Positions 4,081 through 63,367 of a stretch of 64,000 nucleotides of DNA are shown piece after piece. The stretch is taken from the NCBI GenBank assembly GCA_052327205.1, contig CM126226.1, forward strand, positions 40,176,001-40,240,000, given 5' to 3'. A program made the position numbers and the translations under genes. The stretch is from Somniosus microcephalus. Its lineage: Eukaryota. Under the pieces are notes generated by a model. The model worked only from the letters and a program-made list of their open reading frames with translations. It had not been told where the DNA came from and did no database searches. Positions within the stretch are counted from its first letter, which is position 1. Every line of letters begins with the position of its first letter.

Positions 4081-6007
4081 TCTCATCGAAACTTATAAAA
4101 TTCTGACAGGACTAGACAGACTAGATGCTGGAAGGATGTTCCTGATGGTCGGGGAGTCCAGAACCAGGGGTCTAAGGGTAAGGGGTAGGCCATTTAGGAC
4201 AGAAATGAGAAGGAATTGCAGTCAGAATCAGGGGAATTTATAATGGGGAACAAAGAAATGGCAGACCAACTAAATACATATTTTGGTTCTGTCTTCACAA
4301 AGGAGGACACAAATAACCTCCCAGAGATGCCGGGGAACATAGGGTCTGATGAAAGGGTGGAACTGAAAGAAATCAGTATTTGTAGGGAAATGGTGTTAGG
4401 AAAATTGATGGGACTGAAGGCCGATAAATCCCCAGGGCCTGATAATCTACATCCCAGGGTACTTAAGGAAGTGGCCCTAGAAATAGTAGATGCATTGCTG
4501 GTCATCTTCCAGAACTCGATAGACTCTGGAACAGTACCCATGGATTGGAGGGTAGCTAATGTTACCCCACTATTCAAAAAAGGTGGCAGAGGAAAAGCGG
4601 GGAATTATAGACCGGTAAGCCTGACATCGGTAGTGGGGGAAATGCTAGAGTCCATTATAAAAGATGTAATAGCAGAGCACTTGGAAAGCAGTGACAGGAT
4701 CGGACAAAGTCAACATGGATTTACAAAAGGTAAATCATGCTTGACTAATCTACTGGAATTTTTTGAGGACGTAACTGGTAAAATAGATAAGGGAAAACCA
4801 GTGGATGTGGTGTATTTGGACTTTCAGAAGGCTTTCGATAAGGTCCCGCATAAGAGATTAGCGTGCAAAATTAAGGCACATGGGATTGGGGGCAAGGTAT
4901 TTGACTTGGATAGAGAACTGGTTGGCAGACAGAAAGCAAAGAGTTGGAATAAACGGGTCGTTTTCCGAGTGGCAGGCAGTGACTAGTGGGGTACCGTAAG
5001 CATCGGTCCTAGGACCCCAGCTGTTCACAATATATATTAATGATCTGGATGAGGGAATTGGATGTAATATCTCCAAATTTGCAGATGACACAAAGCTAGG
5101 TGGGAGGGTATGCTGTGAGGAGGATGTCATGAAACTCCAGTACGATTTGGACAGGTTGGGTGATTGGGCAGAAACATGGCAAATGCACTATAATGTGGAT
5201 AAATGTGAGGTTATCCACTTTGGTGGCAAAAACAGGAAGGCAGATTATTATTTGAATGGCAATAGATTGGGAGAAGGGGAAGTGCAAAGAGACCTGGGTG
5301 TTCTTGTGCACCAGTCGCTGAAGGTAAGCATGCAGGTGCAGCAGGCGGTTAAGAAGGCAAATGGTATGTTGGCCTTCGTAGCGAGAGGGTTTGAGTACAG
5401 GAACAAGGATGTTTTGCTACAGTTGTACAGGGCCTTGGTGAGACCGCACCTTGAGTATTGTGTGCAGTTTTGGTCGCCTTATCTGAGAAAGGACGTTCTT
5501 GCCATGGAAGGAGTGCAGCGAAGATTCACCAGGCTGATACCTGGGATGGCAGGAATGACGTATGAGGAGAGATTGTGTCGATTAGGCTTATACTCACTGG
5601 AGTTTAGAAGATTGAGAGGGGATCTCATCGAAACCTATAAAATTCTGTCAGGCCTGGACAGACTAGATGCAGGAAAGATGTTTCTGATGGCCAGGGAGTC
5701 CAGAACCAGGGGTCATAGTCTAAGGATAAGGGGTAAGCCATTTAGGATTGAAATGAGGAGGAATTTCTTCACCCAGAGAGTGGTGAACCTGTGGAATTCT
5801 CTGCCACAGAGGGCGGTGGAGGCCAGTTCATTAAATATATTCAAGAAAGAGTTGGATATATTTCTCAAGGCTAAAGGGATCAAGGGGTATAGGGAGAAAG
5901 CAGGGACCGAGTACTGAATTTGGATGATCAGCCATGATCGCATTGAATGGCGGAGCAGGCTCGAGGGGCCGAATGGCCTACTCCTGCTCCTATCTTCTAT
6001 GTTTCTG
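4081..6007 (+). mobile_element. 5'-truncated CR1 (HER1-like) LINE; chimeric, 3'-region fragment 4081-4215 fused to ORF2 body
   Basis: RT motifs KSPGPD, NYRPVSLTS, QHGFTKGKSCLTNL, YLDFQKAFDKV, FADD (5078-5089) and RPHLEYCVQFWSP; CR1 3' UTR ending ttctatgtttctgtg; putative TSD tgaa. Confidence 0.95.
4216..5917 (+). pseudogene. CR1 ORF2 reverse transcriptase, disabled (no endonuclease, frameshift near 4900, stop near 4997)
   Basis: ORFs 4216-4986 and 5129-5917 are consecutive RT pieces. GVPQGS is mutated to gta ccg TAA. Confidence 0.9.
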
Positions 6008-8230: not shown

Positions 8231-8415
8231 NNNNNNNNNNNNNNNNNNNNNNNNNNNNNNNNNNNNNNNNNNNNNNNNNNNNNNNNNNNNNNNNNNNNNN
8301 NNNNNNNNNNNNNNNNNNNNNNNNNNNNNNNNNNNNNNNNNNNNNNNNNNNNNNNNNNNNNNNNNNNNNNNNNNNNNNNNNNNNNNNNNNNNNNNNNNNN
8401 NNNNNNNNNNNNNNN
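8231..8415. other. Assembly gap or masked run (185 N)
   Basis: N run whose flanks (tcatgtcc / ctctccggcc) equal the flanks of the 176-nt pyrimidine tract in the first unit. Confidence 0.99.
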
Positions 8416-10720: not shown

Positions 10721-12077
10721 TCAGCAAGGGGTTAACACCCACAGCTCTACGTCTCATATTTCCAATCTAGTGCGAGTGGTTAGTCTGGGAAGGGTGGTGC
10801 TTCCTTTTCATTTCTCTGCAGTACAGCTAATGGCTACAAGTTCTGATAATGGTTTTTACGCAAAGTGAAAGCCACAAGAAGTGGCTGTTTGTTATCACTC
10901 TGAAACCTCAAGGACTCGCTGCTCAGACATACTCGTCTGTGAGCACGAGGTATGAGTCATACAAAAAAAAGCAGAAAGTACAGTAGAAAGGATATTCGGC
11001 ATCCAACCCTGTCGGCAAAGTGGGTTCTAACGTCTGAGATGATGGGTGCAGTCACACAGTCATAAATACTTTGTAGATTTGACATTTAACCACTGTTGTT
11101 TTTCTGTACAGGCAAGAAAAACTGCTCCATTTATTGAACATCTATGCCTATCACCCTACTGATTTTCACAACAATTGGATAGTGTTCTGTTTCTTTTGAT
11201 ATTTTTCAATCCCCCCCCCACCCTCCTTCTACAAAAAATGAATTTTAAATTGCAAGTCTACACAACATTTTCTCATACCCAGCTGTAGAATGTAGTCCAT
11301 GGTATTGTGGCCACATATACCAGTTACACACTGTGTGGTATTGTATAGCATGAGCCACCCAGTTCACACAGCTGTGACCAAGAGTTGCAGACCCTGGAGT
11401 TTGTAGCAACCATATATGTGGTATTTGTTGATTTGAAAGGCCTGTGCAGTATGGCATTTCTAATATGCAGGCTAGAAATTTCTCTCCACGATTTATCTTT
11501 CTAAAATCAACTAGCATTTCCACATCAAGAAGTAGCAGCAGAGAGGGTTTATTTTGGTCAACCAGGCTGTCTAATGCTTGCTGAAACTCAAACTCATCAC
11601 CATTCTCCAAACCAAGCTGAGAAATGTACGTGAGCAGAGTGTCTGTTATCCGACATAAAGTGCATACTTTCTGCCACAGCACAATGTTCAGAGAGCTTAG
11701 GTGCCGGTTAGAAGACCCAGGCCTAGAAATTGGGTATAGCCCCGCTTGAGGCGTTAGAACTGGCGATGCGCAAAGTTTATAGCCAGACGAAACTTATCGC
11801 CGCCTGGCACGATATTGGGTTGCTTCGCCCCCAAAGGGAATTGAGGCGCTAAATCAGCCGTTGCACGGTGCTCTTAAGGCGCAAAAGGTCAGGCGCTACT
11901 CAATATCGGCGCGGACGGGCGCAGCGCAGGTGAACTCAATTACGGGAAAGCACGAGACCTACAGGCGCCGGCCGGCTCTTAAAGGGGCGGGTCAGTCAGA
12001 CTGAGCTTAAACACCCAACGCCCTGTAGGCCTCAGATTCGGCGCTCGCCCTTGTCTGGCATTAGAAACTTGTGCATT

Positions 12078-13242
12078 ATGGAGAAGGTTAGGCAGAGAGC
12101 AGAGCGCTTCAGCACTGAGGCTCTGGACCACTTGGTGGCTGCAGTTGAACACCGTCGAGAGGTCCTGTATCCGGATAATGGCAAGAGGCCAAATCAGAAG
12201 GCTTATCGACGATCTTGGAGGGAGGTTGCTGTGAGGGTGAATTCCAGCAGCATGGTGACCAGGACCCCTGTTCAGTGCAGGAAGAAATTCAACGACCTCA
12301 CATGGATCGTTAGGGTGAGTGATGGTTCACCAAACTTGTGCTTCCCTCCATCTGCAGCTGACTTCGGGCACCCTGCTGCAATGATGCGCCAATGGCCATC
12401 TGTCAGTATGCACCCATGGCCCTTTCTGGCCACACACATGGACAGATGTCTCAAGGCCTCATGTAAGGGCTCTTGCACCATGGGGGGCATGCGATGAGGT
12501 CTCAAGGCCTCATGTAAGGGCTCTTGCACCATGGGGGGCATGCGATGAGGTCTCAAGGCCTCATGTAACAGAACCTCCCCTTCTTTCCCCTGCAGTCCAA
12601 GATGGCACAGATTAGAAAGGAGCAGCGTCGAACCGGTGGCGGACCTCCACAAGTGGTCACTCTCACGGATCTGGAGGAGAGAGTGCACCAGATACTTGGA
12701 GGACGTCTGTCTGGTCCAGTGACCACTGCATCTGCCGACCCAATTACCAACAGCGAGGGTAAGACTCTCACCTTTTCCACCTGTTGCCTTCCACTTGGTC
12801 CCCCCGCCAGCATGCATCCTCAGTGCGCAGCCATGTCAGAGCCATGCCGCAATCTGGCATGCCTTTCAGCAAACCTGTCCTTTTGCTAAAGCCACTCTTC
12901 CACCTCCCACTTTCAGATGAAGCAGCACCAACTCGGGCTCAACGCGCTGAAGCTGCCAGTGCCAGTGCCACCGGAGGCGAGGACCAGGAGGAATCCGGAC
13001 CAGCCGTTGCAGAATCCGGGGAGCGGAGACATCTGCAGACTGGGGATAGTAGTCCCCTGGAGGGGAGGGGGGGTGGCTCTGAGGATGAACCAGTTGCCGG
13101 ACCAAGCGGCATGGAGCAACGCAGGGGGGATAGGCAAGTTCGGCCACCGTCTCCCCGCAGGGCAAGGCAGGTCGTCATGACTGCTGCACAGAGTGCAGAT
13201 GAGGTCCGTCGCCCTCCAAACAAGCTCCCATTCCGATGCTAG
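12078..13242 (+). CDS. Myb/SANT-like (trihelix; NAIF1/MSANTD-like) Harbinger DNA-binding protein, 3 exons (12078-12314, 12596-12758, 12917-13242), 241 aa
   Basis: RAERFSTEALDHLV..W.EVA.RVN...RT..QCRKKFNDL and RRTGGGPP motifs. GT-AG introns (agg|gtgagt, ctgcag|tcc, gagg|gtaaga, tttcag|at) with matching phases 0 and 1. No stop in the spliced frame. Confidence 0.8.
12448..12568. repeat. 51-bp perfect tandem repeat (~2.4 copies) in intron 1 of the Myb-like gene
   Basis: gtctcaaggcctcatgtaagggctcttgcaccatggggggcatgcgatgag at 12448, 12499 and partially at 12550. Confidence 0.95.
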
Positions 13243-15234
13243 TTGGTCAAAAGGCTTTTAGGTGTAGTGGTGCAAGTGCTTCGGACAGGGTTGAAGGTAC
13301 CAAGTACTGTAAAGCTCAAATCCCAGAACTCCGCTCCACATTAGCTCGCCAACTCTCTCTAGCAGCGATCGCAATGAGCAGGCCAAGTGGCAGAAGATTC
13401 TGCAGTAGAGCTGTCCCCTTTAAATAGCGTCCCCCTACTCCGAGAAGGGCCTGTTAGCCCTCCCTCGAACTGTCACTAATAGCGCTGGGCGCTAAGGCTC
13501 CGGGCGCCACCCAATATGCGCTCAGGCGCTCCTAAAAGGCGTTGCACACTGAAATGACATCATGAGCTGCTTGCGCTCGCGGGTGCGCGCAAACACTTAG
13601 CGCAGGCGCTAAATGTATAGTCAATATCTGAGTTGGCGCTATCTTCATAGCGTCCGCCCCAACATAGCGCTTCGCCCCAATTCTAGGTCTCTTTAGGCGC
13701 TCAGCGCCGGCGCTACCAACCCAATTTCTAGGCCCCAATGTTTTGGGACCCCCAAGTGTGCATGGTGGTACTACCGGAGTTTACCCAGTTAAAACCATGC
13801 CACTCACCAATACAGAGCACTGGTAAGCTTCTAGCTGTTTTCCAATTAGGATCGCCCGAGCGATTAGTGCATTGGTTTCCATGGTTATCTGGAGCTGACT
13901 GGGAAGAATCCCAGCCCTCATTAACAGGTCACCCCTTCAAGTTTCATTGGTGAGCCAGACTGGCTGGTCAATCATCAACATTGCAGACTTGCCTGGTTCC
14001 GGAATTGGATTACCAAGGCTGCCGCAGTGGGTTGACTTGGTTCTGAATTTTCATTGCCAGGCATGTTATATTTGATCCCCCTCGACTCCAAAGAGACCCT
14101 GCCTACCTGCTCCTTAAAAAGGATTCCCACAACAACAAAATGCCAACTGAAAGACACAAAAGAGTGAGTTGTAGTCTCCATTCTGAAAGAATTCTGAGAA
14201 ATTTGGGGTGAAAAATAAAACACAACTGCACTTGGTACATGTATATTAAAGCTGTGACAAAGATTGATTTTGTTAAGCCTTTTTAACCAATATTTAAATC
14301 TTTTGCCCAGCATCTTAAGGAATTGAAGTGACTGGGTTGCGCCTACCGTTGCAATGCTTAGAAGAAGCCTGAATGATGTCTATATGTACATCTGTATGTC
14401 TATACAGTACATAATAACAGTGCTGACAGAGCAGCCAGATGGTGGTGGACAGATGCAGTTCATCACATATCCAGCATTAAACACTATTCAAGCCTCAAGT
14501 GCAGGATGCTCAATAACAAAAGGTTTATATAAAGATCCCAATACCAAGATTGTTCAAACAATGTACAATGTAAACACTGTAGTGATTCCATCTGCCTGCC
14601 TACATCTTTGGGATTACTTCTCTGGTTGTTTTGTCAGCAACAATACTTTCACATACTATTTTTCTGTAAGTCTGATTTTCTGGCTCGCAGTCTTATTTTC
14701 CTGATGGCTTTTAAGCTAGGGCACTAGGGAAGGGTATGGCACTTTGGGGAATAACTGATGCTCTGAGTTTTTCCTTGCACTTCCTGTTGACTGAGACGCT
14801 AAATGGAATCAGCGTTAGAAAGTGCAGAGGAGTTTGTATCATTTTCACCCAACTGTTAGCTAAAAACGTCTGTCTAGGGTGTCATTTTCATTTACAAGAT
14901 TTTTAAGAAAACAGATAAAATGTAGGATTTGAAAATATAATTAGAAAAACAAATGATCACGTTTTAGGTACCCTAACTGGAGCAGTCGGAAGCAAAGTCA
15001 GACAGCAACTCAGCTAGACCACTGGCATAGTTACCAAGTGAAGCCAAGGTGCTTCACGCCATGGGGGATGTGGTGGTAGCATATTTGGGTTGCTCTACCA
15101 TGTCTCCTGTGTGTCCGATCACAATCAGGACTGACAGAATGGCCCGGAAGCAGGTAGCTTCTTCAGGTGGGAGAATAACAAATGATGCAAGGAGCCTTTG
15201 GATTAGAATTCTCTACACAGAGCAGTAAAGTGCT

Positions 15235-22998: not shown

Positions 22999-23485
22999 CA
23001 TCAGAAAAGATTTACGAGAATGATTCCAGGGATGAGGGACTTCAGTTACGCGGATAGACTAGAGAAGCTGGGATTGTTCTCCTTAGAGCAGAGAAGGTTG
23101 ACAGGAGATTTGATAGAGGTGTTCAAAATCATGAAGGTTCTGGACAGAGTAGATAGAGAGAAACTGCTCCCTTTGGTGGAAAGGTCAAGAACCAGAGGAC
23201 ACAGATTTAAGGTGACTGACAAAATAACCAAAGGCGACATGAGGAAAAACTTTTTTACGCAGCGAGTGGTTAGGTTCTGGAATGTACTGCCTGAAAGTGT
23301 GGTGGAGGCAGACTCAATCGCGGCTTTCAAAAGGGAATTGGATAAGTACCTGAAGGGAAATTTTTTTGCAGGGCTACGGGGAAAGGACGGGGGAGTGGGA
23401 CTAGCTGAAGTGCTCTTGCAGAGAGTCGGCACAGGCTCGACGGGCCGAATGACCTCCTTCTGTGCTGTAACCATTCTATGATTCA
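22999..23485 (+). mobile_element. CR1 LINE 3' fragment (different subfamily)
   Basis: QKRFTRMIPGM..LGLFSLEQRRL.GDLIEVFKI..RTRGH..FFTQRVV; attctatgatt tail. Confidence 0.9.
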
Positions 23486-33271: not shown

Positions 33272-35273
33272 GGCCGGAATTTTGCCGGCGCTCAGAGAGC
33301 GGGTTCGGAAGTGGGTCCGCTGTCAAAATCTGAAAGATTGACAGCGGGTTGGGATCCCGCGCTGAACCCACCTCCGTGTCAGTTTCCCAAGTGCGGGGTC
33401 TGCCTGCGCTTTGCAGACCTGGCACTAAGCGGCGGGTCAGCCAATTGAGATATTTAAGAGGGTCTTTAAAGGTAGATGAATGGCATTTTACCACCTTCTA
33501 GCCATTTTTCCAACTTTTCCACAAGGTTCCCGTTGCTCGGAGATCACGTCAGGTCAGTGACGTAAGAAAACTACTAGGCACTTGGTCTGAGTATTAATCA
33601 ACTGTTTTTCAACATGGAAATCTAGTTGTGTCCTTCACTAGCTTCTGTTAAAGAATGTCCTGAGCAAGCTGGGCCCATGCCCGAGTATTTATACTCTCCC
33701 TGGACAGCGCCACCAGCAGGCCACCCAGTATCATTTCATAAGTCATTTCCACATAAATGACAAGATTCATGTCAGTAAATGTGTCGGATTCTCTATGACT
33801 CTCCATTGCTGTGAATAGGTGACAACTGCAAAGTGGTATAAAAGCTACCATTTCACAGCTGTTCACTTTCCAATGCGCCTTCAGGATTTGGAAGACACTT
33901 TTGAGCTGTATGCAGTTCGGAAGTGTTTGGAGTAAACTCTCTATCCACTGTCACCTCCTTGGAGCAACCTCTCTCACCATTGACAATCACTTCAGTTATC
34001 TCAACTTCAGCTGCCATATATTCCAGCAGCATCGGTGCCCCTGAAAAAAATCTCACCTTGGTCCTCAGAATCCCACTACGATCAGCTCCAACACCAACAT
34101 CACCAGACACACCAGCAGCAACAACACCAACCGTCTCCGCAATCACCTGATGCTGCACAGGACACAGGGCATCAGCACCTGACAACATTGCTGCCCGGGA
34201 GGCCAGCGATGGCCTCACCATGGCCAGATTTACTTCACTTGACGCTGTATCGCTGTATACCCTGGCTGCCACATGATGCACCAGGTTGCCACCACCCCAC
34301 ACCAGCACTACCAGCACTAAACTATGCCTACAATGTCCAAGCTATTCCTTTGTTCCTATCACACTCATCACCATGGGGGGGGGGGGGGGGGGGGGGGGAA
34401 AGAGGGCAGGGGGAGTTATGTCTCACCATTCACTGAAACTCACTAAGGTGCACACAAGTCTGTCCAAGAAGGCAAAGTGTTGAAAATAAAGATTTCAATG
34501 CTTGACAACACATTAACACTTTACATGAACATTGGCTAAAGTACACAAGTGCCGACCCTTGTGTGTTGTTAGTTTGAATGATTGGAGGGTGAATGAGAGG
34601 AGTGGATTGTGCGATGGGGAAGTGATAATGTAGATAGAGATGAATGAGTGGAGATGTAAGGTAAGTTGGTGTAAGGATGTGCAGGAGGGCAGAGTGATGG
34701 GGATGTGATGAGTGGCACAGGAGGATGAGGTTGAGTATGGCTTTGCAGTAACATTTCGTGGTCTACTGAGATCATCGAAAGGCTTGCGCCACTGTAGTCA
34801 GGTCATTCTGACAACATTCCTGCTTGTGGCCTCTTGTGCAACATGTAACCAGGCTGTGTTGGTCTCCTGGGGAAGTCTCTTCCGCCCATTGGAAGGGAAG
34901 AAAGCCTCCCTGCGTGCCGTGACTCCCTCCATAAGCATACGGAGGGAGTCATGGGAGAGACTGGGTGCAGCCGTGCCCCCTTGTGCAGTGCCGGTCAGTG
35001 TTTGCAGCACCTCAATGCTGCAGAACACTGACATACAACTGTCAAAATGAATGTGGACATGGTCCCTTCAAGGAAATCGGCTGATGACGCATCATCAGAT
35101 GACGTCATCAGACCCGCTTCCTTTTAATTGGCCAGGAACCTTGCAGGGCGGGCTTAACAAGCCCAATCAGGGCAAAACCACTTGGAAGAGGCGGGATGAA
35201 GATGGGAGCAGGGTTTGAAGCCGCCACCTACTCCGGCCGCATCGGACTAGCCACTATTTGCGCAATCGTGGCC
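33272..35273. mobile_element. Older internally deleted Harbinger element (putative transposase start on plus, Myb-like remnant on minus)
   Basis: Imperfect TIRs ggccggaatt / aatcgtggcc; TSD aca on both sides. Confidence 0.75.
34755..34990 (-). pseudogene. Degenerate Myb/SANT-like exon
   Basis: AAPSLSHDSLRMLMEGVTARREAFFPSNGRKR....AWLHVAQEATSRNVVRMT*LQWRKPFDDL aligns with the protein at 12078; in-frame TGA at 34798-34800. Confidence 0.8.
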
Positions 35274-35530
35274 ACAGAGTTTAAACAAAAAACAATTTAA
35301 TTTCTAGGCAAATAAGGCTTTTATAACCCATCTTTTTCAGCAGTGAGTAGCAATATTTTCATATGAAAACACTATAACCAAAATAAAATATAAACCAGGG
35401 TGGATTACAAAAATGGACTGTTTTACCCTCTATATTTACAGGCCACGAATGGCATTTGCAGGAATATTTTTTGATGGACAACATAGAGATAATTTGCACA
35501 AAGCTTTATATAAATTTTGCAGTATTCCCC

Positions 35531-43530: not shown

Positions 43531-44216
43531 GGCCTAGAAATTTGGTGGCGCCCCAGCTCGCCTGGGCGCCAGAAGTCCCGCCCCGGAAGGAGCCGATTGC
43601 GCCAGCGCAATATTCAGTTTCAGCGCCCCAAACGGAAGCGGGGCGCTGCTCGAGGCACCCCGCATCCCTCTTGGGGCGCTGAAACTGAATATCGCAGCGC
43701 AACGTGCCGCAGCGTGCGGTACTGCAGGCCTTCCTCCCCTTAAAGGGGAGGGGCCTGCACCAGCGCGATCATAGATCGCGAGTGCCGGCAAAAGAGCCCG
43801 GCACCGAGGAGAGGTGCTGGGCTCTTGGGACACAGCCGGCACTGCCCGGGGGCAGGGGGGCTCAGGAGGCCGGGGACGGCGGCGCGAGGAGGTGCTGGCA
43901 GGCAGCCAGCAAAAAAAATGGCCGCCCTGCACCTCCCCTTTAATTAGCGCCACTACTGCTGCAGGTCGGCCCCCCTGAACCGGTCGCAGATTGCGACCGG
44001 CGTTACAGCGGGGGGGCGCGACCCAATATCGCGATCGGGGCGGTAGCAGGGCGCTGCGCACACTGATGACGTCATCGGTGGTGGCGCAGCGCTACGGGCT
44101 AACGCTGCCATTAGTGCCCTGCTAAATTTCGCGGGGGGCGTGGCCAGTGGCGCTAAAGCCACTAAGTGCCCTCTTTGGGCGCTAACTGGTGGCGCAGCCC
44201 ACCGAATTTCTAGGCC
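43531..44216. mobile_element. Harbinger-type MITE
   Basis: Perfect TIR ggcctagaaatt / aatttctaggcc, identical to 11720-13734; TSD agt on both sides. Confidence 0.92.
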
Positions 44217-46198: not shown

Positions 46199-46733
46199 GG
46201 GGGGGAAATTCGGTTGATTTGTGCCTCCCGTTAGGGCGCAAAGCAACTAGTGCCCGAACGCTGTGCCCCGAACGCTGTGCCGCTAACGCCTCCTGCAAAA
46301 TTCAGCGGGCGAATGCGTCATCACCGTGGGCAGCGCCCCGGCCGTGATCTTCAGTAGCGCCCCCTGACTTACCGCCGGACGCTGGGGGGGGGGGGGGGGG
46401 GGGCGTACGTGTGGCCAGGGCAGCGCAAATTTAAGGAGGTGCTGGGCGGCGATTTTTGTTGCACTCCTCTTGAGCGCCGGGCTCTTTTGCTGGCACTCCG
46501 ATCCCTGGTGGCCCAGCTGGGCCCCGGGCCGTGCTGCGCTAGGCCCCTCCCCTTGAATAAGGGGAGGAAGGCCTGCAGTACCGCGGCACATAGTGCCGCG
46601 ATATTCACTCGCAGCACTCCAAGAGGGAGGCAGGGTGCTTCCAGTAGCGCCCTGCCTCCCTCTTGGGGCGCTCCCAGTGAATTTCGGGCGCGGGGATGCC
46701 AACTTTTTCGAGGCGCGACGCAATTTTGCCCCC
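46199..46733. mobile_element. Harbinger-type MITE
   Basis: TIRs gggggggaaatt / aattttgccccc; TSD tat on both sides; 14-bp internal duplication at ~46251-46282. Confidence 0.88.
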
Positions 46734-47067: not shown

Positions 47068-47927
47068 GGGGGAGAAATTCGGTATCACCCCGTTTGGGGC
47101 ACAATTATTGGCCGGGTGCAAAGTTTAGCGCTTGGCGCTAATTATTGCCTCCGACTGCAAACTTGGCTTCTATCGCCCCTGGAGGTGATTGGAGAGCTAA
47201 ATCAGGCGCTACGCACCTCTCCGAAGGCGCTAACGCCGAGGAGCAAGGCGCTACCTCAGAGCACCGGCGAAGCTCATGTGATGTCAGTCAGCAATGGAAC
47301 ACAGACACACTGGCGCCGGCCAGTTCTTAAAGGGGAGGGTCGATCTTGCTCTCCATCCACACCCTGCTCATTGCAGCCTTGAATCTCAGCCTGGAGAGAC
47401 CTGTACATCAAATCTGCTGGAAAGAACAATGGAGAGGCCCAAGGACAGAGCTCAGAGTGCAGCCCCCAAAGTCTCTTCTAAATCGATGCAAGGAAGGTCA
47501 AATCAAAATGAACCAGCAAAGTGCTGCTCAGTGCCCAAAACTCCTTCACACAGCGTTGAATCTCTCCAGAAGTCTCTCTCTCTCTCAGAATGCGTGGTGC
47601 AAAAATGTCGCAGACAAAAAAAAGGCAGGAAGCGGTCGCCTTTAGAAGGCAGGAAGAAGTCCCTTCCCGACTGCAAAACGCTCCCCTCAACCTGTCGTTG
47701 CTAGCGGCAGGCAGTAAGGCAGGGGGCGCCACTCAATATCCGGTCCGGGGTGCTGCACACTCGAGTGACGTCACGATCTGCGGGCGCAGGAGATCATGGA
47801 GGTAGTGTTTAGCGCTGCTGCAAAGTGTTTGGTCAATTTTGCGAGCGGCGCAAACATCACCGTGCCTGGGCGCTAGTTGCTTTGTGCCCCATTAACGGGA
47901 GGCGCAAAGCAACTGCATTTTCCCTCC
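47068..47927. mobile_element. Harbinger deletion derivative apparently retaining both gene starts
   Basis: TIRs gggggagaaattc / gcattttccctcc; TSD ttt; MERPKDRAQ at 47429 resembles the Myb N-terminus. Confidence 0.8.
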
Positions 47928-56056: not shown

Positions 56057-56754
56057 GGGGGAGAAATTGGGTGAGTAGCGCCACCTGTTAGCGCCTAAAG
56101 AGGCAGTCAGTGGCTGTAGCGCCACTGGCTGCGTCTCCCGCGATATTCAGTAGGGGCGCTAATGGTGGCGTTAGGCTTTTGCGCTGCGCCGCCACCGATG
56201 ACGTCATCGGTGTGCGCAGCACCCCATTCGTGCCCCGTTCGCGATATTTGGTAGCGAACGCCGCAGTTGCGCCGCTCGCTACCCGCGCCCGGTTCACGGG
56301 GCCTTACTGTGCCGGCAGCGGCGCAAGTTAAGGTGGAGGTGCAGGGCGGCCGCCTGCCAGCACCTCCGTCCCCGGCCTCCTAACCCCCCGCCCCCCCGCG
56401 GCATTGCCGGCTGTTTCCTGAGAGCCCGGCACTTCTCCTTGGTGCCGGGCTCATTTGCCGGCACTCGCGATCGGGGATCGCGCTGTTGCAGGCACCTCCC
56501 CCTTAACAGTGGGAGGAAGGCCTGCAGTACCGCAGCGTGCCGTGCCGCAGCATGTGGCGCTGCGGCACGTTGCGCTGCGATATTCAGTTTCATCGCCCTA
56601 AGAGGGACGCGGAGCGCCTCGAGCCTCGCCCCGTGTCCCTTGAGCGGCACTGAAACTGAATTTCTGGCGATCGGAATTACTCCGATCGCTGCGCTAAATC
56701 CTGCGCTCAGGCGACTTTTGCGGCACTTTGGCGCCCCAACCCAATTTCTAGGCC
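56057..56754. mobile_element. Harbinger-type MITE, inverted homolog of 43531-44216, with mixed TIRs
   Basis: gggggagaaattggg / cccaatttctaggcc; TSD att on both sides. Confidence 0.9.
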
Positions 56755-58330: not shown

Positions 58331-58547
58331 TTATGGCTTCAGTTAAATCTTCCAAAGTTTCCGCAACAGATATTGCAGAGACAACAATGGGGATAATTGA
58401 TCACAGGCCTAGGTTCAAATGCCAGCCGTTACATACTCCAAACTGATTGCCAGTGCTGCACTGTATGTACCATGTACAGCTGGAAGATAGGAAGGGAGAA
58501 ATAGGAGAAGAGGGTGTCTTTTCAGGGCATAAAATATTGAGAATTTG

Positions 58548-59378
58548 CAGATGCAATATAACGTGGATAAATGTGAGGTTATCCACTTTGGTGGCAAAAA
58601 CAGGAAGGCAGATTATTATCTGAATGGCAATAGATTGGGAGAAGGAGAAGTGCAATGAAACCTGGGTGTCCTTGTGCACCAGTCGCTGAAGGTAAGCATG
58701 CAGGTGCAGCAGGCGGTTAAAAAGGCAAATGGTATGTTGGCCTTCGTAGCGAGAGGGTTTGAGTACAGGAACAAGGATGTCTTGCTGCAGTTGTACAGGG
58801 CCTTGGTGAGACCACATTTTGAGTATTGTGTGCAGTTTTGGTCGCCTTATCTGAGGAAGGATGTTCTTGCCATGGAGGGAGTTCAGCGAAGATTCACCAG
58901 GCTGATACCTGGGATGGCAGGAATGACGTATGAGGAGAGATTGGGTCGATTGGGCTTGTACTCGCTGGAGTTTAGAAGAATGAGAGGGGATCTCATTTAA
59001 ACTTATAAAATTCTGACAGGACTGGACAGACTAGATGCAGGAATGATGTTCCCGATGGTCGGGGAGTCCAGAACCAGGGGTCACAGTCTAAGGATAAGGG
59101 GTAGGCCATTTAGGACAGAAATGAGGAGGAATTTCTTCACCCAGAGAGTGGTGAACCTGTGGAATTCTCTACCACAGAAGGCAGTAGAAGCCAATTCAGT
59201 AAATATATTCAAGAAGGAGTTGGATATATTTCATACGGCTAAAGGGATCCAGGGGTATGGGGAGAAAGCAGGGACCGGGTACTAAAATTGGATGATCAGC
59301 CATGATCGCATTGAATGGCGGAGCAGGCTCGAAGGGCCGAATGGTCTACTCCTGCTCCTATCTTCTATGTTTCTATGT
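58548..59378 (+). mobile_element. 5'-truncated CR1 LINE, same subfamily as 4216-6007
   Basis: Near-identical to 5180-6007 with premature stops (tga ~58656, taa 58998-59000); ttctatgtttctatg tail. Confidence 0.95.
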
Positions 59379-62611: not shown

Positions 62612-63367
62612 GGCCCAGTACTTCGGGTCCCAACGCGTGAGTAAGGATGGGGTACTCACGCGTGGACTCGATGGAAGTGCCGGTTTCTTGCATGCACAGT
62701 GCATGCGCGGGAAACTGGCATTTCCTCCAAGGGGTTCAGAGGTCCAACGCGTGCGCGCAGGACTCTGCGCGCACGCGTTGAACTTCCTTCTTTTTTACAG
62801 GTTTGCCCGTGTGTAAGGGCCTCAACTTTTTACGAATGTAAAAAGGAGACGCAAGGACTTGATTCTTTAAGCTAAGTGGTCTATTTTTTAAAATTATAAC
62901 ATTTTTTCCACAGCTTTATTGTTTTTAAGGACTTTACAGTAAGGTAAGTGTATTTTTAGACCCGATTTAAACATTTTTTATTTTTTTTAAAAATTTGAAT
63001 AATTGTTTAAAATCGTTTTTTAAAGTTATTTATAGTTCATTTAATTAGTGGGATGTTTTTAAAAATTTTATTTAAAGTTTAAGTAGTGTTTTGGGCGCCC
63101 GTAGTTTTCATGAGTTTGACAGTTCTTACTATCAAACTCATGAATGAAGTTTTCCCTCCCCTGATTGGCTGCCCAGTGCTCACCTGATCCCAGCCGGCAC
63201 ATCGAACTAACTACGCCGCTGGATCAGGCAAGCACATCGCGCCAACAGCTGAACCGGGCCAGTGACAGGAATTCCAAGCAGGCTCAGGCTTCAGCTGTCG
63301 GCGCGCCGGGTAAGTGCACATCGGGGGCTTGCACGCGCGGCAAGCCCCCGAACCTAATTTCTGGGCC
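62612..63367. mobile_element. Harbinger-type MITE with AT-rich core and hairpins
   Basis: TIRs ggcccagtactt / aatttctgggcc; TSD aat/att; left flank aaacac. Confidence 0.75.

What the first reader, a model, noticed from the sequence alone, without database searches (positions are those of the whole stretch)
12078..13242. Intact spliced Myb/SANT-like gene in a transposase-less Harbinger element
Seen: three exons (237+163+326 nt) with canonical splice sites give an uninterrupted 241-aa protein. It has a trihelix domain, an RRTGGGPP linker and an acidic disordered tail; a ttaaa element lies at ~11979. The last ~12 residues appear to read across a deletion junction near 13205. Established: Harbingers encode a DDE transposase plus a Myb-like DNA-binding partner, and such pairs were domesticated as HARBI1/NAIF1. 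Inference: a helper or dominant-negative regulator of the surrounding MITEs with the same TIR, or early domestication; a young insertion would also explain the intact frame.
Basis: partly seen in the sequence, partly recalled or inferred. Interest (0 to 1): 0.75.

Follow-up and report, generated by a model that had tools for sequence, protein, structure and literature searches.

The report
Truncated Myb-only shark Harbinger copy
This is one internally deleted copy of an abundant jumping-gene family in a genome that is likely a shark's or ray's; its DNA-binding gene is cut short, showed no spliced RNA in two samples, and likely reads open only because the copy is young, so it is probably ordinary.

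Summary
The anatomy is real. A 2,015-bp element (11720-13734) has perfect 16-bp TIRs, a CCA target duplication, three GT-AG exons giving 241 aa, a Myb_DNA-bind_5 hit and no DDE domain.
(1) Public reads show an abundant family whose Myb frame runs on past a microhomology deletion at 13198-13213. This copy ends at residue 232, followed by 9 foreign residues and a near-private stop. It lacks the conserved C-terminal region (134-309 aa in 11 selected homologues), the part that binds transposase in studied Harbingers, so a helper role is unlikely.
(2) In two RNA runs no splice joint was listed, and introns were covered like exons. At a near-private exon-2 site, 0 of 181 and at most 8 of 208 reads could be this copy's.
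(3) Near-private changes are as dense in coding as in non-coding DNA (5/726 vs 10/1289). At about 1% divergence an open frame survives by chance about half the time.
Myb-only Harbinger derivatives are already published (sea krait, C. inopinata). A dominant-negative role is not excluded but has no positive support.

The parts
11717..11719 (+). left 3-bp target-site duplication (CCA)
11720..11735 (+). left TIR, 16 bp, perfect match to the right TIR
   Evidence: (pair I2)
11979..11987 (+). TATA-like TTAAAGGGG motif, likely the Myb-gene promoter (inferred); also present in non-coding MITE-like elements
12078..12314 (+). predicted exon 1, 79 aa, Myb/SANT trihelix domain; near-private change at 12303 gives W76 where 10 of 11 aligned homologues have R
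12315..12595 (+). predicted intron 1 (GT-AG), with a perfect 51-bp x2.4 tandem duplication at 12448-12568
12596..12758 (+). predicted exon 2 (RRTGGG linker, helix, start of the acidic region)
12759..12916 (+). predicted intron 2 (GT-AG); its acceptor is also in the family's loose-end consensus
   Evidence: table 7
12917..13212 (+). native part of predicted exon 3 (acidic, poorly conserved linker), ending at residue 232
13198..13213 (.). internal deletion junction with ~15-bp imperfect microhomology
   Evidence: (loose ends before 13206 and behind 13213)
13213..13242 (+). 9 foreign codons and a stop read from the right arm; the stop depends on a near-private change at 13240
13206..13718 (-). 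right arm with mirrored TATA-like motif (13415-13423); likely promoter and 5' remnant of the oppositely oriented second gene (inferred; no DDE or other Pfam hit)
13719..13734 (-). right TIR, 16 bp
13735..13737 (+). right target-site duplication (CCA)

Best explanation
This is a non-autonomous, internally deleted copy of an abundant PIF/Harbinger family whose Myb-like gene is cut at residue 232, and its frame is likely open only because the copy is young and likely silent. How it works: the parent carried the three-exon Myb gene and, by the superfamily's known layout, an opposing transposase gene (the transposase is inferred, not seen). A deletion between two ~15-bp similar words, likely made during repair of a transposition break (inferred), removed the Myb C-terminal helical region and everything up to the right arm (shown by reads). 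The intact TIRs and the 3-bp TSD show the copy was inserted by transposition, and it could be moved again only with proteins supplied by other copies (established for the superfamily). Exon structure, splice signals and promoter motif are inherited family features, not features kept for this copy. If any protein were made it would be predicted to bind TIR DNA but not to recruit transposase.
For: TIR and TSD intact. Abundant family: summed contig depth 2.1e5-8.2e5 across the element against 16-27 in the unique flank bins (overlapping contigs inflate this, so it is qualitative only). At 13206, 95 of 131 (X15) and 229 of 260 (X16) RNA reads carry the left-arm letter; 80 and 232 reads run on behind 13213 into sequence missing here. 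Eleven selected homologues keep 134-309 aa after the cut, with conservation rising exactly there (mean BLOSUM ~1.1 against 0.1-0.6 in the linker). The Myb C-terminus binds transposase in zebrafish Harbinger and Ping (PMC7282668, passages). No RNA joint among the 15 joints shown. Intron-1 depth is 119-167 and 290, against exon 1-2 depth of 133-168 and 252-299. At 12749, 181 of 181 X15 reads and 200 of 208 X16 reads carry the family letter. Near-private changes: 5/726 coding vs 10/1289 non-coding, Fisher p=1.0. The neutral chance of an open frame is 0.44-0.74 at 0.5-1% divergence. An older Myb-exon remnant with an in-frame stop lies at 34968-34765.
Against: Only 2 RNA runs, tissue unknown, 24% and 31% read; gonad may not be covered. 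14 joints, 968 loose ends and 668 difference rows were not shown. Up to 8 of 141 plus-direction X16 reads at 12749 (8 of 132 at 12742) are not the family letter and could be this copy's. At 13240, 14 of 140 and 12 of 136 RNA reads are not the family letter. The ~0.7% divergence is a lower bound; at 5% the neutral survival chance is only 0.02-0.05. Fifteen sites give little power to detect selection. Of the 12 listed differences in the native coding part, 8 are synonymous. I assign this to family-level selection (6 of 8 shared sites, p=0.009; 2 of 4 near-private sites, p=0.33), but that split depends on my threshold. The insertion appears present in both organism labels A and B, with no empty allele listed (contigs reach 25 letters into the TIR, below the tool's 31-letter bridging rule). 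The parent's transposase was not seen.
Confidence: 0.86

Rival explanations
1. Dominant-negative repressor: the truncated protein is made, occupies the family's TIRs through its trihelix domain, cannot recruit transposase, and so damps transposition (by analogy with truncated P-element repressors, recalled, not from a call).
For: The DNA-binding domain is kept and the predicted transposase-binding region is lost. Promoter motif and splice sites are intact. A few RNA reads lack the family letter at near-private sites (up to 8 of 208 at 12749). No empty allele was listed in two DNA runs.
Against: No spliced joint listed; 0 of 181 X15 reads at 12749. No excess constraint on this copy. Most family reads at the junction come from undeleted copies, so one locus would be heavily outnumbered. 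R76 to W change next to the third helix (though 1 of 11 homologues also has W).
Confidence: 0.06
2. Helper in trans: this Myb-only copy supplies the DNA-binding subunit for a transposase encoded elsewhere and mobilises the MITEs, as proposed for Harbinger-1M_cIno.
For: Precedent in C. inopinata (PMC13668399, abstract and passages; the authors call the in-trans step hypothetical). Two MITE-like elements in the window share the TIR start.
Against: The C-terminal region that mediates transposase binding in studied Harbingers is deleted. Longer Myb copies are abundant in the same genomes. No spliced RNA was listed.
Confidence: 0.03
3. Early domestication: a new host gene of the NAIF1/MSANTD kind, fixed and under purifying selection.
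For: Open frame; insertion apparently shared by organism labels A and B. Harbinger Myb genes were domesticated repeatedly in vertebrates (PMC9392472, passages).
Against: A and B differ by only 2 letters in 1,195 flank bases, so sharing shows no depth of time (table 8). TIRs are perfect. Best homologue is 55% identical over exon 1, with no close orthologue among 60 hits. Coding and non-coding near-private change rates are equal. RNA depth in the flanks is 0 (X15) and under 5 (X16).
Confidence: 0.03

Closest known systems
Harbinger-Snek solo-ORF variants in sea kraits (PMC8437027; passages seen)
   Same: TIR-bounded vertebrate Harbinger derivatives that encode only the DNA-binding protein after a large deletion (452 intact ones in Laticauda colubrina, 6 in L. 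laticaudata), beside non-coding short derivatives.
   Different: Those are described as intact and multi-copy. This copy's Myb gene is truncated, and whether its deletion is amplified is unresolved.
Harbinger-1M_cIno of Caenorhabditis inopinata (PMC13668399; abstract and passages seen)
   Same: DDE-less element with TIRs, 3-bp TSD and a MADF/Myb gene, beside MITE-like relatives.
   Different: There the MADF-only form is amplified, several loci are expressed and a new insertion was caught. Here the protein is cut, no spliced RNA was listed, and longer copies dominate.
Harbinger3_DR and Ping/Pong two-protein system (PMC2836001 and PMC7282668, passages; Sinzelle 2008 not held, seen only as cited)
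   Same: Myb-like protein with N-terminal trihelix; 3-bp TSD; TIR-dependent mobilisation of deletion derivatives.
   Different: No DDE gene here, and the Myb C-terminal part that binds transposase is absent.
NAIF1 / MSANTD1-4 domesticated genes (PMC9392472; passages seen)
   Same: Same Pfam domain class and Harbinger origin.
   Different: Those sit at syntenic positions across jawed vertebrates under purifying selection. This is one TIR-flanked copy of an abundant family with no sign of constraint.
Chondrichthyan 'MYPOP-like' or uncharacterised gene models (e.g. P0004, P0009 from Pristiophorus japonicus)
   Same: Colinear over exons 1-3; 47-55% identity in the Myb domain.
   Different: They continue 144-266 aa past the cut point. 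Their genomic context was not seen.

Membership tests
PIF/Harbinger non-autonomous derivative | terminal inverted repeats | tested here: met
   16 bp, perfect; shorter than the 25-50 bp given as usual in PMC9179366
PIF/Harbinger non-autonomous derivative | 3-bp target-site duplication | tested here: met
   CCA on both sides
PIF/Harbinger non-autonomous derivative | Myb/SANT-like gene or its remnant | tested here: met
   PF13873, E 5.4e-10
PIF/Harbinger non-autonomous derivative | interspersed repeat family with a longer parent | tested here: met
   depth step at both TIRs and loose ends at the junction
Autonomous Harbinger | DDE transposase ORF inside the TIRs | tested here: not met
   no DDE_Tnp_4 hit in the 27 frames of 45+ aa overlapping the element; right arm only ~520 bp
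Autonomous Harbinger | parent family encodes a DDE transposase opposite the Myb gene | not testable with these tools
   no genome held; the read lay shows only 30 letters past each side of the junction; right-arm frame gave no atlas hit
Myb-only helper (Harbinger-1M_cIno / Snek solo-ORF type) | full-length Myb protein including the transposase-binding C-terminus | tested here: not met
   cut at residue 232; 11 selected homologues keep 134-309 aa more
Myb-only helper (Harbinger-1M_cIno / Snek solo-ORF type) | same deletion present in many copies | tested here: inconclusive
   at most 36 of 131 and 31 of 260 RNA reads at 13206 could span the junction; these may be right-arm reads
Myb-only helper (Harbinger-1M_cIno / Snek solo-ORF type) | spliced transcript | tested here: inconclusive
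   none listed among 2878 and 5463 laid reads of two partly read runs of unknown tissue
Domesticated Harbinger Myb gene (NAIF1/MSANTD) | single locus without mobile-element ends | tested here: not met
   perfect TIRs, TSD, abundant family
Domesticated Harbinger Myb gene (NAIF1/MSANTD) | purifying selection on the locus | tested here: inconclusive
   5/726 vs 10/1289 near-private changes, p=1.0; 2 of 4 synonymous; low power
Domesticated Harbinger Myb gene (NAIF1/MSANTD) | syntenic orthologues in distant species | tested here: inconclusive
   no homologue above 55% identity; synteny could not be examined
Dominant-negative transposition repressor | binds TIRs and lowers transposition | not testable with these tools
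   needs binding and excision assays

The most novel reading that the evidence does not exclude
The deletion founded a fixed or amplified subfamily that makes a spliced, germ-line 241-aa Myb protein which binds the TIRs of a very abundant shark Harbinger family but cannot recruit transposase: a natural dominant-negative brake on a two-component transposon, in a family that may itself have become Myb-only with the transposase supplied in trans.
Probability: 0.07. Interest if true: 0.6.

Novelty: new member of a known kind. Interest (0 to 1): 0.15.

Why it matters
As found, it matters little. It documents an abundant, probably recently active Harbinger family in a cartilaginous fish, for which I found no paper (searches; Repbase and Dfam could not be searched). 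It also shows how an inherited exon structure in a young copy can look like a new gene. If the novel case held, it would be a natural self-repressor of a two-protein transposon and a testable intermediate between mobile Myb genes and NAIF1/MSANTD-type host genes.

Tried and rejected
No whole genome is held, so copies could not be counted or aligned directly.
Word-based homologue searches found nothing for exon 1 (0 of 104 candidates) or for a frame of the second element (0 of 44); both are weak negatives. The alignment search gave 3 sawshark proteins.
The atlas gave no usable hit for the right-arm frame, so its identity as the transposase start stays inferred.
Pfam scans of 114 frames in GC-rich islands and 102 of 110 other frames of 72+ aa (8 antisense or overlapping LINE frames left out) found only the Myb hit and RVT_1 above noise. 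No host gene and no DDE were found, but short exons would be missed.
No RNA holder was listed among the indexed runs; this is no evidence.
Summed contig depth was rejected as a copy number.
Non-majority RNA letters were rejected as proof of this copy's expression: they also occur at 12009 (6 of 45 and 15 of 136 reads), upstream of the gene, where DNA weight is 98% majority.
A structure prediction of homologue P0009 had not finished and is not used.
The alignment used 11 of 60 hits, chosen for length of 340 aa or more; short models (P0005, P0006, P0008: 152-187 aa) lack the C-terminal region and were left out. Names were looked up for only the top 10 hits.
One flank row (11567) was dropped from the 40 difference rows before counting.
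Three look-ups of earlier findings returned nothing.
Supplements of the papers were not read.

Full report
Observation. Exon 1 matches Pfam Myb_DNA-bind_5 (E 5.4e-10). The gene lies in a 2,015-bp element, 11720-13734, with perfect 16-bp TIRs and CCA duplicated on both sides. No DDE domain was found in the element's frames of 45 aa or more. The splice model has independent support: a sawshark protein, P0009, aligns without a break across both predicted introns. The top 10 of 60 homologues are all from sharks and rays by their source names, so the window is likely chondrichthyan. The best identity over exon 1 is 55%.

The family. No genome was held, so I laid two RNA runs of organism B and contigs of organisms A and B on 11000-14400 at 85% likeness. 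Summed contig depth jumps from about 17-27 in the left flank to 2.1e5-8.2e5 inside the TIRs. The tool warns that this is not a copy number. Even allowing a roughly 30-fold inflation from overlapping contigs (my estimate), it implies at least hundreds of relatives. Only 121 of 2878 and 240 of 5463 RNA reads are 99% or more alike, so most come from other copies. Flank contigs of B match the window exactly and those of A differ by 2 letters in 1,195. Both run 25 letters into the left TIR, which suggests the insertion is present in both, though this is below the tool's 31-letter bridging rule.

The deletion. Loose ends pile up before 13206 and behind 13213. The two arms share an imperfect ~15-bp word (13198-13213), so the cut looks microhomology-mediated (inferred). 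The 30-letter consensus behind 13213 reads open in the Myb frame (hand translation). The native protein therefore goes on, and this copy ends at residue 232 followed by 9 foreign residues. The stop depends on a letter at 13240 that over 99.9% of the DNA weight does not share. At 13206, 95 of 131 and 229 of 260 RNA reads carry the left-arm letter, so most transcribed relatives lack this deletion; a minority subfamily sharing it is not excluded. In an alignment of 11 long homologues (chosen from 60 for length), conservation is low through the acidic linker and rises at the cut. They keep 134-309 residues beyond it. PMC7282668 (passages) states that the Myb C-terminus binds the nuclease in zebrafish Harbinger and Ping. 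That the lost region does this job here is inferred by position, not shown.

Expression. None of the 15 joints shown has RNA support and none matches either intron; 14 less-supported joints were hidden. Intron 1 is covered as deeply as exons 1 and 2 (119-167 vs 133-168 in X15; 290 vs 252-299 in X16), on both mate directions. This fits read-through of many copies better than a spliced mRNA. At 12749 in exon 2, 181 of 181 X15 reads and 200 of 208 X16 reads carry the family letter. Against my reading: up to 8 X16 reads at 12742/12749, and 14 of 140 and 12 of 136 reads at 13240, are not the family letter. They could be this copy or third letters, since such minorities also occur at non-coding sites. 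Tissue is unknown and only 24% and 31% of the runs were read.

Selection and age. Of 39 listed differences inside the element (40 of 708 rows shown, one flank row dropped), 15 are near-private (94% or more of DNA weight differs). Five fall in 726 coding bases and 10 in 1289 non-coding bases (p=1.0; p=0.62 and 0.76 at thresholds of 90% and 97%). Shared differences are mostly synonymous (6 of 8, p=0.009, one being the junction site), near-private ones in the native frame are not (2 of 4, p=0.33). This is the pattern expected if selection acts on the mobile lineage and not on the inserted copy, but the numbers are small. With my assumed mutation model, a neutral frame survives with probability 0.44-0.74 at 0.5-1% divergence, 0.19-0.30 at 2% and 0.02-0.05 at 5%. 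The ~0.7% figure is a lower bound. Perfect TIRs and a perfect 51-bp duplication in intron 1 also fit youth. A second element in the window keeps a Myb-exon remnant with an in-frame stop (34968-34765), which looks like the later fate of such copies.

Surroundings. The TATA-like motif occurs 7 times in the window, mirrored at the element's right arm and inside non-coding MITE-like elements, so it is a family feature. The mirrored copy suggests that the right arm is the promoter of an opposing second gene, presumably the transposase; this was not confirmed. Two MITE-like elements share the TIR start, but only their terminal ~45 bp resemble the element. No host gene was detected nearby (insensitive to short exons).

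Comparison. The element works like a non-autonomous PIF/Harbinger derivative and meets the tested membership features for that class. It fails those of an autonomous element, of a full-length Myb-only helper and of a domesticated gene, or is inconclusive on them. DNA-binding-protein-only variants are published for Harbinger-Snek (452 intact in one sea krait; PMC8437027, passages) and for C. inopinata (PMC13668399, abstract and passages). Searches listed no paper on this shark family or on a truncated Harbinger Myb repressor; repeat databases could not be searched.

Verdict. Observation confirmed with corrections; interpretation partly supported. Best explanation: a young, truncated, likely silent deletion copy (0.86). 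Rivals: dominant-negative 0.06, helper 0.03, domestication 0.03. New member of a known kind; interest 0.15.

Noticed in passing
window ~33274-35310, minus strand: Second, older Harbinger-like element with a Myb exon-1 remnant (34968-34765, 34% identical to exon 1, in-frame stop) and no DDE hit; its ends were not resolved.
   Followed up: partly
window 43531-44216, 56057-56754, 46199-46733, 47068-~47927, 62612-63367: MITE-like elements of 535-860 bp with short TIRs and 3-bp flanks (AGT/AGT, ATT/ATT, TAT/TAT, TTT/TTT; AAT/ATT for the last). The one at 47068 is 65% alike to both ends of the studied element.
   Followed up: partly
protein P0073 (sawshark): Gene model with an N-terminal region (Pfam PF12126; RING/B-box/coiled-coil by eye) joined to Harbinger-Myb-like sequence that starts where exon 2 starts and lacks the Myb domain. 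It is a possible host-transposon chimeric gene or a mis-annotation.
   Followed up: no
protein P0010 cluster: A Myb-like protein of this class clusters at 90% identity across Hypanus, Mobula and Hemitrygon. It is a better candidate for a domesticated Harbinger Myb gene in rays than the copy studied here; synteny was not checked.
   Followed up: no
window 12448-12568: Perfect 51-bp x2.4 tandem duplication inside predicted intron 1.
   Followed up: yes
window 4198-5917 and 58547-59365: Two LINE 3' fragments with RVT_1 hits in the first, 95% alike over 300 bp; further LINE remnants near 23000, 54300 and 57000.
   Followed up: no
window 11000-11744 and 13951-14400 (run X2): Flank contigs have depth 18-20 while other listed X2 contigs have 30-44, which could mean a haplotype-specific or hemizygous locus in that sample; unexplained.
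   Followed up: no
window 13736-14077: A separate lower-copy repeat abuts the right TIR (summed contig depth 430-1970).
   Followed up: no
window 8231-8415: 185-base assembly gap inside a GC-rich MITE-like region next to a C-rich low-complexity tract.
   Followed up: no
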